Source: a phage
Strand: one strand, 5' to 3'
Assembly (NCBI GenBank): GCA_025497365.1
Contig: GCA_025497365.1_4955.1
Length of the DNA stretch: 57,325 bases
Position numbers: made by a program. Below, piece by piece: positions 42,001 through 45,000 of this stretch. Within the stretch, counting starts at the first letter, position 1. Every line of letters begins with the position of its first letter.

Positions 42001-45000
42001 TTCAGTGATTTTGCCAGTGGTGGCATGACTTTTGTCAACGGCGCACCATCTGTACTGACGTAATAACGGGTAATGTTCTGAACCTGTTTATCACCCCATA
42101 GTAATTTGCTGTTACGCGGTACTTTCGTCACTAACATGAAATCGTGAATATCTTCGTGTGATGTTATAAAATCACGAATGTCTTTATTGTGTACCAGTGC
42201 TGCCTCAGCCGCTTTTGCAACAACCTGCATACTGTGGTTTTGATGCCAACCCAGATCAACACTGTGGCAATAAGCACCTTTACGTTTAACCTTCTTACCA
42301 CCTTCATAAACAGCGATGTAGTTATTTACATCGCGGATAAACATCACGTCATAAATCGCTTCTTCAAGCTGGAGTCTGGTTAATTTTTCCCACGCGTGAC
42401 GAACCTGTTCTACTTGTCCGGTAAATACTCGTGGTACGTAAACCGTAAGACCATCTGTGTTAGCCTGAATCATGGATAAACCAGGGATTTTCAGAAGTTC
42501 TTCAGCCAACATACACAAAAGTAACTGTCCGTTAATCGTAATAGCCATTGTATAAGCAGGATCGTAGAACGGGCTGTATACGTTATTACTGTCACCATAC
42601 ACACCGTTTAACGCCAGTTTTAACATTGCGTTTTCTGGTGTACCTTTCGGGTAACTGGAACGCATGTCGTAAACATTTTTATAAATAGTGCAAAATTGTT
42701 TACCCAGATGTGCCGGATAAAGTTCATTACTGATCGCAAGGTTCGGGTAAAAACTGGCAACGTCCAGATCGATGATCACATAATTTTCAGTGGACCTGAT
42801 AGTTTGAGACTCAATAGACCCGTGGATACCACCCGTACCAAAATCAAACGAGAACCCGTTAATGTCTGCGCTTAAATCTGTGAATACACCTTTTGTTTCA
42901 GTGATGACCTGTTGACGTAACCAGTTAAGAACACGATTAAATTCAGGCTGTTCAAAACGGACATAAGGGAAAATCACACTGTTCAATGCGATTGATGGTC
43001 TGTGCGTCTGTCGTGGTTTTCTGCTACCCGGTTCGAAACATTGAATACCTGATTTTTCAAGTTCCATGATGAAATAGTCTTTACCGATTTTCGTGTCATT
43101 ATGGTTCATGAAATTACGACCGTATTTAGCAGAAAGTTCACGACGAAAATCAATCAGCTTTTTACTGTGTTTATAAAACATCAAAGTCGCTTTCAAATCG
43201 TGTATCAGATATTGACGAAGCGTATCAATTTGAGAATCGGTTAAGTAAGCCCCTGGTGTAAACGGGAGGTCTTCAATGTTTTCCATTCTCATATTGAATT
43301 CAAGTGTTTTCAGACTTGTTCGTTTTGCCTGATTGTCGAAATGATGAATTTTATATAAATCAAGCTGGGGGACTATCCAGTCTTTTTCCCACACCATATG
43401 AGCAAAACGATTTTCATCACCATCGTTAATTATCGAATCACCTTTTTTGTAAATGTCTGCGTTGGTGATATACATGATGTTGTTCAAAATAGAATGCTGA
43501 ACAGGATAGTCGTAACCCAGATTGTTATAACCAACTTCTTCAGCACGATGTTCACGCAAATATTCTGTGAACAGGTAAAAAGCCTGACGATCATCGCGAC
43601 GATGTGAAATCTCAAAAATATAAGGTGTTTCAGTTAACGCGTGAATAGCACCGAACAGAAAAACATTAGGATAGTTTTCAATATCGTGAACGTAAGCATC
43701 TGACATAATAAAACCCTGATAAGTAAATGGGGCACTATGGCCCCGTTTTCAGTTATGAACGCTTATTGACCCATTCATTATATAACCGATCACTTTCTTC
43801 TTTTGTAGAAGCGTGTGCAAATCGCCACCCGTAACCGTTTTGCACTTCATACGCGAAATAAAATTTACCAAAATTTTTACGGGAAGTTCTTAAAACGCTA
43901 TTAAATCTTTTTTGAATCACTCCGTGTTTCTTTACGTATGACAATTGGTCTTCTAAAGATAATTTTTCAAACATTTCTTGTTCTTGTACAAATTGTTCTT
44001 GATTCATTTTATACCTCGTTGATAAATGGGGCACTATGGCCCCATGTCTGTTTAAAGCGGTATGTCGTCCCAGTTCCAGTAACTATCAGTAACCGTTACC
44101 GTTGAGAAAATTCGGGGCCGGGGTAGTCATTACCATATAACCGTTAGCGATCAGTTGTTCATCGTTCCAACCTTGCGCAATAAACTGTTCGTAAGTAGCA
44201 CCACCTGCTTTTTCAGTCATTACCTTCACAGGTGCTGCCGCTGGTGTAGGCGCTGCTACAGGTGCTGCCGCTGGTGTAGGCGCTGCTACAGGTGCTGCCG
44301 CTGGTGTAGGCGCTGCTACAGGTGCTGCCGCTGGTGTAGGCGCTGCCGCTGGTGTAGGCGCTGCTACAGGTGCTGCCGCTGGTGTAGGCGCTGCTACAGG
44401 TGCTGCCGCTGGTGTTACGCCGATCGGACGTGCACCTTCAGGCATTGCAGGAGCAGCACCGAACACAGAGGCAGGAGCCGGACCAGAAATGATTTCTTCA
44501 CCCGCATAAAGCAATTGCGCCATTTCCATGTTGATATACACACCAGCCTGATTACCTGTACGACCGTTTGCAACAGATGATCCGCTGATACGATAGTAAT
44601 ACCCTTTTTTCGCCAGATTTTTATCAATAACTGGCTGGTACGCTGCGTTATAAACCGGACACGCATCAATAGCCACGTTGCGTGAGAAACCAATTACCCA
44701 GTGACCAGCATAACCAGTTTTACTCGCATGTTTCGGATCGTCACCGTTAATAATTTTCCATGCGAAAGTGGGTTGTTGTGGTTCACCGTTCACATAGTGT
44801 GAGTTAGCCGCTCGCATGATGGCCTGGAACACCGCACCCAGTTCACCTTGTTCTTCCCACCAGTTCGCCGCTGTTTTAGGAAACGCCAGACCAACCCACC
44901 AGTTATGTTTTTCAGGTGCTAACGGTTTATTTTCGTGGTCATGAGTGTTGATATCGAAAAAAGAACCGCCAACCAGACGACCAACCGGAGTTACAAAAGA

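What the first reader, a model, noticed from the sequence alone, without database searches (positions are those of the whole stretch)
44225..44416. 30-bp tandem repeat array inside the ssDNA-binding-like gene
About six in-frame units encode a (AAPTPAAAPV)n linker between the N-terminal domain and the C-terminal tail. Repeat number is likely to vary between isolates and the array is an assembly hazard. The antisense ORF 44155-44580 with a CRWCRRCYRCC pattern is an artefact of this repeat.
Basis: seen in the sequence. Interest (0 to 1): 0.38.

Follow-up and report, generated by a model that had tools for sequence, protein, structure and literature searches.

The report
Variable repeat linker in phage SSB

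Summary
TRF finds a period-30 array at 44228-44415. On the coding (-) strand it reads as five identical 30-bp units, one 18-bp short unit and a terminal 18-bp partial unit (44227-44412). Together they encode 62 residues of PAAAPVAAPT repeats.

The host gene (44086-45015, -) is a T7 gp2.5/Enc34-type SSB. This rests on PHROG 7011 (E 9e-103), a marginal Pfam PF10991 hit, and Foldseek matches of the AlphaFold model to 4jg2, 4klk, 1je5 and 5odj.

Copy number does vary. Close relatives with otherwise near-identical proteins carry about 1-10 units, giving proteins of 261-343 aa. Draft contigs and several "complete" records break inside the array. The antisense ORF is not coding: substitutions are 17 synonymous to 6 non-synonymous in the sense frame against 4:19 in the antisense frame.

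The array is already annotated as a "direct tandem repeat region" in phages Sasha and Sergei, so it is a new allele of a known feature.

It is a confidently predicted ~35-residue beta-alpha-alpha-beta mini-domain followed by a short PxPxFL motif. This mini-domain has no Pfam or PDB match. It recurs in 1-5 copies, after P/A-rich linkers in every example inspected, in about 200 protein clusters of phage replication and recombination proteins.

The parts
44086..45015 (-). Gene for a 309-aa T7 gp2.5/Enc34-type single-stranded-DNA-binding (and probably annealing) protein
   Evidence: ORF. PHROG 7011, E 9e-103. PF10991, 26.1 bits. Foldseek matches to 4jg2, 4klk, 1je5 and 5odj. The orthologue in phage Sasha is annotated as a Gp2.5-like SSB.
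44446..45015 (-). N-terminal OB-type DNA-binding domain (residues 1-190)
   Evidence: AlphaFold pLDDT is above 90 throughout. Structural matches to T7-type SSBs have TM-scores (target-normalised) of 0.60-0.75. The conserved Lys47 (AFPK) aligns with the IPK lysine of 4jg2.
44413..44460 (-). Non-repetitive proximal part of the linker (GAAPAMPEGARPIGVT, residues 186-201)
   Evidence: Read directly from the sequence. P192 and G194 are nearly invariant in the family alignment.
44227..44412 (-). In-frame tandem array: 5 x 30 bp (PAAAPVAAPT), 1 x 18 bp (PAAAPT) and a terminal 18 bp (PAAAPV). It encodes a 62-residue Pro/Ala-rich spacer.
   Evidence: TRF and unit parsing. AlphaFold predicts coil at pLDDT about 60. 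Copy number varies in relatives.
44335..44352 (-). Irregular 18-bp unit: a 30-bp unit lacking 12 bp between two GCAGC microhomologies. It splits the array into perfect runs of 60 bp and 108 bp.
   Evidence: The 12-, 18- and 24-bp sub-unit variants seen in relatives are of the same kind.
44122..44226 (-). C-terminal ~35-residue mini-domain (KVMTEKAGGATYEQFIAQGWNDEQLIANGYMVM), predicted as strand-helix-helix-strand
   Evidence: pLDDT is 90-96 in the full-length model and 91-93 when modelled alone. It is found in 197 representative clusters. It has no Pfam match and no PDB match.
44089..44121 (-). Disordered C-terminal end carrying the short motif PAPNFLNGNGY. This stands in place of the acidic SSB tip.
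   Evidence: pLDDT is below 50. A PxPx[FI][LAV] motif occurs in 33 of 69 module-bearing homologues, before the module in 21 and after it in 12.
44155..44580 (+). Antisense ORF (141 aa, TTG start, CRWCRRCYRCC pattern). Not a gene: it is the mirror image of the Ala/Pro codons.
   Evidence: No PHROG hit. Differences from phiKPN_H2, Carvaje and 9NA are 17 synonymous to 6 non-synonymous in the sense frame, against 4:19 in this frame.
44023..44043 (-). Hairpin GGGGCCATAGTGCCCC downstream of the SSB stop codon, probably an intrinsic terminator
   Evidence: The equivalent site is annotated as a terminator in Sasha and Sergei. It is duplicated at 43724-43744.

Best explanation
The array is an in-frame variable-number tandem repeat inside the gene for a T7 gp2.5/Enc34-type phage SSB.

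**DNA level.** Identical 30-bp units, and their internal 12- and 18-bp sub-repeats, gain and lose copies by replication slippage or unequal recombination. Only changes that are multiples of three survive.

**Protein level.** The units encode a Pro/Ala-rich, unstructured but probably extended spacer. It is 62 residues in the array here. In relatives, the distance from the OB core to the first module is about 38 to 160 residues.

The spacer tethers two C-terminal elements to the OB-fold DNA-binding core. One is a folded ~35-residue strand-helix-helix-strand mini-domain. The other is a short PxPxFL motif. In canonical SSBs this position is occupied by the acidic C-terminal tail.

**Inferred function.** By analogy with that tail, the tethered elements are inferred to recruit partner proteins or to link SSB molecules to each other. 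Candidate partners are the polymerase, the helicase, the DUF2800 exonuclease or a host factor. The spacer would set reach rather than carry sequence-specific information.

**Shown versus inferred.** Shown: the repeat, its frame, its variability, the SSB fold, the predicted disorder of the linker and the conservation of the C-terminal module. Inferred: slippage as the mechanism, the spacer role and the partner-binding role.
For: **Repeat anatomy.** All full units are identical.

**Variation in relatives.**
- Twelve relatives carry about 2 to 9.6 units, while the N- and C-terminal domains stay essentially identical.
- Further alleles of 261-333 aa exist. None is out of frame.
- Sashavirus BDX09P1 is 99.0% identical over the next 13 kb yet has only about 2 units.

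**Signs of slippage and recombination.**
- Every unit in Carvaje ends in ACG instead of ACA, which indicates concerted evolution.
- AVIO78A shows a higher-order N-N-V-V-V-N-V-V-V pattern of normal and variant units.
- 12-, 18- and 24-bp sub-unit variants are bounded by GCAGC or CAGCG microhomology.

**Composition is conserved, sequence is not.**
- 9NA uses a different 30-bp unit (PAPVAAPVAT).
- P0011 repeats a 17-aa unit and P0034 an 8-aa unit.
- Most distant homologues have non-repetitive P/A-rich linkers of 38-160 aa with a median P+A content of 55%.

**Structure.** AlphaFold gives the OB core pLDDT above 90, the linker about 60 with no secondary structure, and the module 90-96. The fold matches T7-type SSBs.

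**What the acidic tail normally does.** T7-type SSBs normally have an acidic C-terminal tail used for partner binding and ssDNA selectivity (PMC5686142). The last 46 residues here have a net charge of only -2, read directly from the sequence.

**Spread of the module.**
- It recurs in 197 representative clusters with 1-5 copies.
- It sits on PF10991 SSBs, DUF669 proteins and other phage replication-module proteins.
- One phage contig has it on three adjacent genes.
Against: No experiment or complex prediction shows what the module binds, so the partner-binding step is pure analogy.

Only the SSB carries the module in this window. A 'common tag on several phage proteins' role therefore cannot apply here as it might in L016.

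The tolerance of 2-10 units is inferred from sequenced genomes. Some of those may be collapsed short-read assemblies: the 263-aa allele is the commonest one in draft assemblies.

The Pfam PF10991 score is only at threshold.

The perfect identity of units between Escherichia/Salmonella phages and Klebsiella phages that are about 82% identical elsewhere is not fully explained by a 'sequence does not matter' model.
Confidence: 0.8

Rival explanations
1. The array is real, but its copy number in this window is an assembly artefact. Short reads may have collapsed or expanded it, so the 5+1+partial structure is not that of the phage.
For: The locus demonstrably defeats assemblers:
- SP-062 and SP069 contigs end in it.
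- The KP13-27 and VLCpiS10a records are opened in it.
- Many partial proteins end at it.
- The shortest allele (263 aa) is the commonest in draft assemblies.

The window's exact protein is not present among about 15 billion public proteins.
Against: The irregular 18-bp unit splits the array into perfect runs of only 60 and 108 bp. Each run can be spanned, with unique anchors, by reads of about 150 bases or more.

A collapsed array usually gives a minimal, regular structure, not an internal odd unit.

Alleles of similar or greater length are reported in finished phage genomes: Sasha 5.6 units, Bas82 and AVIO78A 9.6 units.
Confidence: 0.15
2. The repeats act mainly at the DNA level, and the coding capacity is secondary. 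Possible roles are origin iterons (as in the lambda ori inside gene O), a packaging site or a recombination site.
For: The array consists of perfect direct repeats located in the replication module. Units are identical even in Klebsiella phages that are about 82% identical elsewhere.
Against: - Copy number ranges from about 1 to 10, which is unlike a fixed set of binding sites.
- 9NA has a different unit sequence that encodes the same kind of peptide.
- Distant homologues keep a P/A-rich linker without any DNA repeat.
- There is no dyad symmetry, and the transcript folds less well than 199 of 200 shuffles (z = +2.16).
- There is no GC-skew switch near 44 kb.
- No adjoining A+T-rich region is visible in the sequence.
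- From memory of the abstract of Zeng et al. 2019 (paper not held), 9NA packaging starts at a pac region. Whether that region is distinct from this locus was not checked.
Confidence: 0.04
3. The P/A repeat is more than a passive spacer. The repeated peptide may itself be a multivalent ligand or may drive self-association, for example condensate formation on ssDNA as proposed for the bacterial SSB linker. Copy number would then tune that property.
For: In many relatives the architecture is multivalent: 1-5 modules separated by P/A linkers. A short conserved motif is embedded in many linkers. Units are kept identical within an array.
Against: The peptide sequence of the repeat is not conserved between lineages. 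Examples are PAAAPVAAPT, PAPVAAPVAT and a 17-aa unit in P0011. Alleles with only 1-2 units appear viable. There is no direct evidence of any kind.
Confidence: 0.12
4. The antisense ORF 44155-44580 (+) is a real overlapping gene that encodes a Cys/Arg/Trp-rich protein.
For: It is 141 codons long, and an open antisense frame persists across the array in relatives.
Against: - It has no PHROG match.
- Substitutions against three relatives fall on its first codon positions. They are 4 synonymous to 19 non-synonymous in this frame, against 17:6 in the sense frame.
- It has a TTG start with no visible Shine-Dalgarno sequence.
- The ORFs of at least 120 aa flanking it from 39828 to 46919 are all on the - strand.
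- Its repeat pattern is simply the reverse complement of GCN and CCN codons.
- Its downstream end differs between relatives.
Confidence: 0.01

Closest known systems
Orthologous gene of Salmonella phages Sasha (gp63), Sergei (gp73), Solent and 9NA (gp66), and Escherichia phages PJ16, AVIO78A, PDP46 and Bas82
   Same: Same gene in the same position, between the DUF2800 exonuclease and the DNA polymerase. In the Sasha-type and Klebsiella relatives the 30-bp unit is the same; 9NA has a different 30-bp unit. The GenBank records of Sasha and Sergei already carry a 'direct tandem repeat region' feature on it.
   Different: This window has its own allele: 5 full units plus an internal 18-bp unit, giving a 309-aa protein. 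That exact protein is not in the public collection. The window also has a 299-bp insertion with an extra 93-aa ORF between the SSB and polymerase genes.
T7 gp2.5 and Enc34 ORF6 (T7-type SSBs; Pfam PF10991/DUF2815; PDB 1je5, 5odj, 5odl, 4jg2, 4klk)
   Same: The OB-fold core is predicted to be the same (Foldseek probability 1.0), with supporting profile hits. The genomic setting, in a phage replication module next to a nuclease and a polymerase, is also the same.
   Different: The known proteins end in a short, unstructured, strongly acidic tail (PMC5686142). Here the core is followed by a 62-residue P/A repeat, a folded ~35-residue mini-domain and a non-acidic PxPxFL...GY end.
Bacterial SSB: intrinsically disordered linker plus the DDDIPF acidic tip
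   Same: The overall logic matches: an OB core, a low-complexity linker of variable length, and a C-terminal protein-interaction element. Some module-bearing relatives even end in DDLPF or DDIPF.
   Different: The OB family and oligomeric type differ. The linker here is Pro/Ala-rich and encoded by a perfect DNA repeat. The tip in this phage is not acidic.
Ala/Pro-rich interdomain linkers of 2-oxo-acid dehydrogenase E2 chains, and similar Pro-rich spacers (established knowledge)
   Same: The composition and presumed role are the same: an extended, flexible tether between folded domains. A weak composition-driven hit to an E2 linker appeared (9njt, E 0.48).
   Different: The proteins are unrelated. 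Perfect DNA-level tandem repetition with copy-number variation between isolates is not, as far as I recall, a feature of those linkers; this was not checked here.

Membership tests
T7-type SSB (gp2.5 / Enc34 ORF6 / DUF2815, Pfam PF10991) | Sequence match to the family model above the curated threshold | tested here: met
   PF10991 scores 26.1 bits on the whole protein and 27.7 bits on the N-terminal domain, against a cutoff of 26. This is marginal. Other evidence is stronger: PHROG 7011 at E 9e-103, and a profile of 71 homologues hitting 4jg2 at 8e-11 and 4klk (DUF2815) at 0.003. NCBI names close relatives 'DUF2815 family protein'.
T7-type SSB (gp2.5 / Enc34 ORF6 / DUF2815, Pfam PF10991) | Modified OB fold shared by gp2.5 and ORF6 | tested here: met
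   In the AlphaFold model, residues 1-190 have pLDDT above 90. Foldseek gives 4jg2 at 3.8e-9, 4klk at 1.5e-8, 1je5 at 1.1e-7 and 5odj at 1.5e-7, all with probability 1.0.
T7-type SSB (gp2.5 / Enc34 ORF6 / DUF2815, Pfam PF10991) | Conserved basic residue of the DNA-binding cleft (Lys46 of ORF6, conserved in the DUF2815 structures) | tested here: inconclusive
   Lys47 (AFPK) is nearly invariant in the family and aligns with the IPK lysine of 4jg2 and 4klk. Equivalence to ORF6 Lys46 was not checked by superposition. The aromatic stacking residues were not mapped.
T7-type SSB (gp2.5 / Enc34 ORF6 / DUF2815, Pfam PF10991) | Long acidic, unstructured C-terminal tail | tested here: not met
   The last 46 residues contain 4 acidic and 2 basic residues, with no Asp/Glu run. 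Residues 263-297 are predicted folded at pLDDT 90-96. The paper describes 16 acidic residues among the last 29 of ORF6.
T7-type SSB (gp2.5 / Enc34 ORF6 / DUF2815, Pfam PF10991) | Preferential binding of single-stranded DNA | not testable with these tools
   This needs a biochemical assay.
Variable-number tandem repeat (VNTR) in a coding region | Head-to-tail, near-identical units with a length that is a multiple of three | tested here: met
   There are five identical 30-bp units plus 18-bp variants.
Variable-number tandem repeat (VNTR) in a coding region | Copy number differs between closely related isolates while the flanks stay conserved | tested here: met
   Proteins of 261-343 aa have identical or near-identical flanking domains. 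BDX09P1 is 99.0% identical downstream but has about 2 units.
Phase-variable contingency locus (on/off by frameshift) | Unit length is not a multiple of three, so copy changes switch the frame | tested here: not met
   All units and sub-units are 12, 18, 24 or 30 bp. No out-of-frame allele is seen among the complete alleles examined.
Origin iterons inside a replication gene (lambda ori type) | A fixed set of initiator-binding repeats with an adjacent A+T-rich region, conserved as DNA | tested here: not met
   Copy number ranges from 1 to 10, and the unit sequence differs in 9NA. There is no skew switch and no structure signal. Initiator binding itself is not testable here.
Pfam PF25296 'Decapeptide repeat region' (weak resemblance of the C-terminal module) | Score above the gathering threshold (45 bits) | tested here: not met
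   The best score is 18.7 bits, E 0.0016, on related module-only proteins. The window's own module gives no hit.

The most novel reading that the evidence does not exclude
The repeat-encoded spacer tethers a previously undescribed mobile protein module of about 35 residues, with the consensus MTxKAxGxTYEQFIAxGWTDxxLIxxGYM and a predicted strand-helix-helix-strand fold. In a large group of phage SSBs this module replaces or supplements the canonical acidic tail. It is found, after Pro/Ala-rich linkers in the examples inspected and in 1-5 copies, on unrelated phage replication and recombination proteins: PF10991 SSBs, DUF669 proteins, and relatives of the neighbouring gene 46176-46919. In one phage it sits on three adjacent genes. 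On this reading the module is a shared assembly tag, homotypic or hub-binding, that gathers phage replisome or recombination factors. Tandem-repeat expansion would be the way phages tune its reach.
Probability: 0.35. Interest if true: 0.55.

Novelty: new member of a known kind. Interest (0 to 1): 0.3.

Why it matters
**Practical value.** The array is a proven breakpoint and a possible collapse site when assembling Sashavirus/9NA-like phages. These phages are used as Salmonella and E. coli biocontrol candidates and also turn up as contaminating contigs in bacterial assemblies. Repeat counts in short-read genomes of this group should not be trusted without spanning reads. The locus could also serve as a simple typing marker.

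**Biological value.** The array gives a clean natural series of linker lengths, about 1 to 10 units, in an otherwise constant SSB. That is a ready-made experiment on how tether length affects SSB function.

**Wider point.** A whole branch of T7-type SSBs lacks the textbook acidic tail and instead carries a conserved mini-domain of unknown partner. If that partner were identified, it would show how these phages couple ssDNA coating to polymerase, helicase or nuclease recruitment.

Tried and rejected
- **Antisense ORF as a gene.** Rejected: no family hit and a non-coding substitution pattern.
- **DNA or RNA structure role for the array.** The transcript folds worse than shuffles (z = +2.16), and no inverted repeats were found nearby.
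- **Origin-like signal.** The cumulative GC skew shows no turn at 44 kb.
- **Naming the C-terminal module.**
  - Pfam at E up to 10 gave nothing for the window's copy.
  - NCBIfam gave nothing.
  - A PDB sequence profile search gave nothing meaningful.
  - Foldseek against PDB gave a best E of 4.3.
  - Only sub-threshold hits to PF25296 and PF25317 appeared on related module-only proteins.
  - A literature search for 'GWTDE' returned only unrelated papers, and the 22 papers that mention DUF2815, judged from the search listing alone, did not appear to concern the module.
- **Finding the module's partner by shared neighbours.** An SF2 (ResIII/DEAD) helicase of about 550 aa is present in three of the contexts. 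Such helicases are common in these gene clusters, so this is not evidence of interaction.
- **Whole-protein PDB search.** It gave a spurious hit to a PT-repeat linker (8zvk), which is a low-complexity artefact.
- **The 9NA-like genomics paper (Zeng et al. 2019, PMC6819911).** It is not held in the library, so I could not check whether it discusses the repeat.
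Full report
**What the window is.** The region around the finding matches Sashavirus/9NA-like siphophages of Salmonella, Escherichia and Klebsiella. 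Identity is 96% to Salmonella phage Sasha and 77% to 9NA. Downstream of the array it is 99.0% identical to Sashavirus BDX09P1 over 13 kb.

**Checking the observation.**
- Tandem Repeats Finder reports a period-30 array at 44228-44415, with 4.0 perfect copies at 44228-44346.
- On the coding (-) strand the array reads as two PAAAPVAAPT units, one short PAAAPT unit (18 bp, 44335-44352), three more PAAAPVAAPT units and a terminal PAAAPV, together spanning 44227-44412.
- All five full units are the identical 30-mer CCAGCGGCAGCACCTGTAGCAGCGCCTACA.
- The longest period-30 self-match run is 89 bases, against a maximum of 13 in 200 shuffles.
- The array is 68% G+C in a gene that is otherwise 47% G+C.

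**The gene.**
- The array lies in frame in ORF 44086-45015 (-), which encodes 309 aa.
- The gene sits between a DUF2800/PD-(D/E)XK exonuclease (45031-46176) and a DNA polymerase (41850-43706).
- The product matches PHROG 7011 'Gp2.5-like ssDNA binding and annealing protein' at E 9e-103.
- It matches Pfam PF10991 only at threshold: 26.1 bits against a cutoff of 26.
- A profile of 71 homologues hits the DUF2815-type structures 4jg2 (8e-11) and 4klk (0.003).
- The AlphaFold model has a mean pLDDT of 86, with residues 1-190 above 90.
- Foldseek matches the model to 4jg2, 4klk, T7 gp2.5 (1je5) and Enc34 ORF6 (5odj, 5odl), all with probability 1.0.

So 'ssDNA-binding-like' is well supported at the level of fold. 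DNA binding itself was not tested.

**Linker and C-terminal part.**
- In the model, residues 201-262 (the array) have no secondary structure and pLDDT of about 60.
- Residues 263-297 form a strand-helix-helix-strand unit at pLDDT 90-96.
- The last ten residues fall below pLDDT 50.
- Modelled alone with 46 homologous segments, the C-terminal unit keeps the same fold at pLDDT 91-93.

This differs from the textbook picture. The Enc34 paper states that all T7-type SSBs have a long acidic, unstructured C-terminal tail, used for partner binding and for discriminating ssDNA (PMC5686142). Here the last 46 residues have a net charge of -2 and no acidic run.

**Variation between isolates.** I extracted the orthologue from twelve phage records. 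The N- and C-terminal domains are identical or nearly so. The array differs:
- 536P12 and BDX09P1: about 2 units
- Solent: 2.6
- Sergei: 3.6
- PJ16: 4
- Sasha: 5.6
- this window: 6.2
- PDP46: about 8.4
- Bas82 and AVIO78A: 9.6

Further alleles of 261, 263, 293, 297, 331 and 333 aa are in the protein collection. The window's exact protein is not there.

**Signs of slippage or unequal recombination.**
- Every unit in Carvaje ends in ACG rather than ACA.
- In AVIO78A a variant unit has spread in a repeating block pattern.
- Sub-unit gains and losses of 12, 18 and 24 bp are bounded by short GCAGC or CAGCG repeats.

9NA carries a different 30-bp unit that encodes PAPVAAPVAT. More distant homologues have other repeated units (17 aa in P0011, 8 aa in P0034), and most have non-repetitive P/A-rich linkers. 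The distance from the OB core to the first module is 38-160 residues in most of them, with a median P+A content of 55%. Composition and the presence of a spacer are therefore conserved, while DNA sequence is not. This argues for a protein-level spacer role.

**Assembly hazard.**
- The draft contigs of phages FSL SP-062 and SP069 end inside the array on both sides.
- The 'complete' records of Klebsiella phages KP13-27 and VLCpiS10a begin or end within it.
- Numerous 'partial' DUF2815 proteins on 56-58 kb contigs in Salmonella and E. coli assemblies stop at or in the array, or start just after it.
- The shortest allele is the commonest in such drafts, so some published counts may be collapsed.

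For this window, the internal 18-bp unit splits the array into perfect runs of 60 and 108 bp. Ordinary 150-base reads can anchor each run. That makes collapse less likely, but only spanning reads can settle it.

**Antisense ORF.**
- ORF 44155-44580 (+) has no PHROG match.
- In its parts outside the array, differences from phiKPN_H2, Carvaje and 9NA fall on the third codon positions of the sense frame.
- For phiKPN_H2 over 44416-44580, these differences are 17 synonymous to 6 non-synonymous in the sense frame, against 4:19 in the antisense frame.

It is a mirror image of Ala and Pro codons, not a gene.

**DNA-level rivals.** The array transcript folds less well than 199 of 200 shuffles. There is no GC-skew turn at 44 kb. 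The array varies from 1 to 10 copies. An iteron or packaging-site role is therefore unlikely, though initiator binding cannot be tested here.

**Beyond the finding: the tethered module.**

*How widespread it is.*
- A search of 1.84 billion representative proteins with the last 46 residues found 197 clusters at E of 0.001 or better.
- Many of these carry 2-5 copies per protein.

*Which proteins carry it.*
- The carriers are mostly PHROG 7011/112 and PF10991 SSBs.
- They also include DUF669 proteins, other SSB PHROGs, and PHROGs 11133 and 29341. Those two PHROGs are weak matches of the window's neighbouring gene 46176-46919.
- In the proteins whose sequences I inspected, the module follows a Pro/Ala-rich linker.
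- Some carriers also end in DDLPF or DDIPF, like bacterial SSB tips.

*Genomic context.*
- All five genomic contexts examined are phage replication or recombination modules.
- In one contig (L016), three adjacent genes carry the module.
- In this window only the SSB has it.

*A second motif, and the search for a name.*
- A second short motif, PxPx[FI][LAV] (here PAPNFL, followed by GNGY at the C-terminus), occurs in 33 of 69 homologues. It lies before the module in 21 and after it in 12.
- The module has no Pfam, NCBIfam, PDB-sequence or PDB-fold match.
- I found no description of it in the searchable literature.

Its function, whether partner recruitment or self-association, is inferred only by analogy with SSB tails.

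**Verdict.** As a feature it is ordinary and already annotated in relatives: the GenBank records of Sasha and Sergei carry a 'direct tandem repeat region' on it. This window contributes a new allele. The more interesting lead is what the repeat tethers.

Noticed in passing
window 43724-44043 (ORF 43753-44034, - strand): A 299-bp segment carrying an extra 93-aa ORF lies between the polymerase and SSB genes. It is bounded by a perfect 21-bp duplication, TAAATGGGGCACTATGGCCCC, which is the terminator hairpin. The segment is absent from the 11 relatives whose intergenic spacing could be read. The ORF has no Pfam or PHROG hit and only about 34% identity (E about 1e-3) to hypothetical proteins of other E. 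coli phages. It looks like a small moron-type insertion.
   Followed up: partly
window 46176-46919 (- strand); TRF 46466-46517: The neighbouring 247-aa protein (PHROG 27827) has its own Pro/Ala-rich linker with a weak 27-bp repeat, and a WGLRHDPRIHTDSK...GLWRQKKK motif. Similar RIH-type motifs occur in P0101, P0116 and P0139, which carry the same C-terminal module as the SSB; three module proteins match PHROGs 11133/29341, weak matches of this gene.
   Followed up: partly
L016 6260-9152: In a metagenomic phage contig, three adjacent replication-module genes all carry the GWTDE-type module. One has an N-terminal copy, one a C-terminal copy and one three copies. This suggests a shared assembly or tethering function.
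   Followed up: partly
window 44089-44127 and homologues P0023-P0088: A short motif, PxPx[FI][LAV] (PAPNFL here, PNPAFL or PNPAIL elsewhere), is embedded in the P/A-rich tails of 33 of 69 module-bearing homologues. It lies on either side of the module and looks like an independent short linear motif.
   Followed up: partly
window 44122-44226 (module): The module looks like an internal duplication of a decapeptide (EQFIAQGWND / EQLIANGYMV). Related module-only proteins give sub-threshold hits to Pfam PF25296 'Decapeptide repeat region' and PF25317 'SMF/DprA SAM domain'.
   Followed up: partly
public records OP617744 (KP13-27), ON602746 (VLCpiS10a), KC139632/KC139634 (FSL SP-062), KC139649/KC139650 (SP069): These deposited phage sequences start, end or break inside the homologous array. 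Their SSB genes are therefore split or truncated, and the repeat count is undefined.
   Followed up: yes
L014 7766-7981: In a distant relative, a small gene with an Acb2/Tad1-hairpin Pfam hit (an anti-defence sponge family) sits between the DUF2800 exonuclease and the SSB gene.
   Followed up: no
window 19001-19052 and 35607-35636: Two other short tandem repeats in the window: 21 bp x 2.5 copies (93% matches) and 12 bp x 2.5 copies (100% matches). The first lies within + strand ORF 18795-19172; the ORF context of the second was not checked.
   Followed up: no
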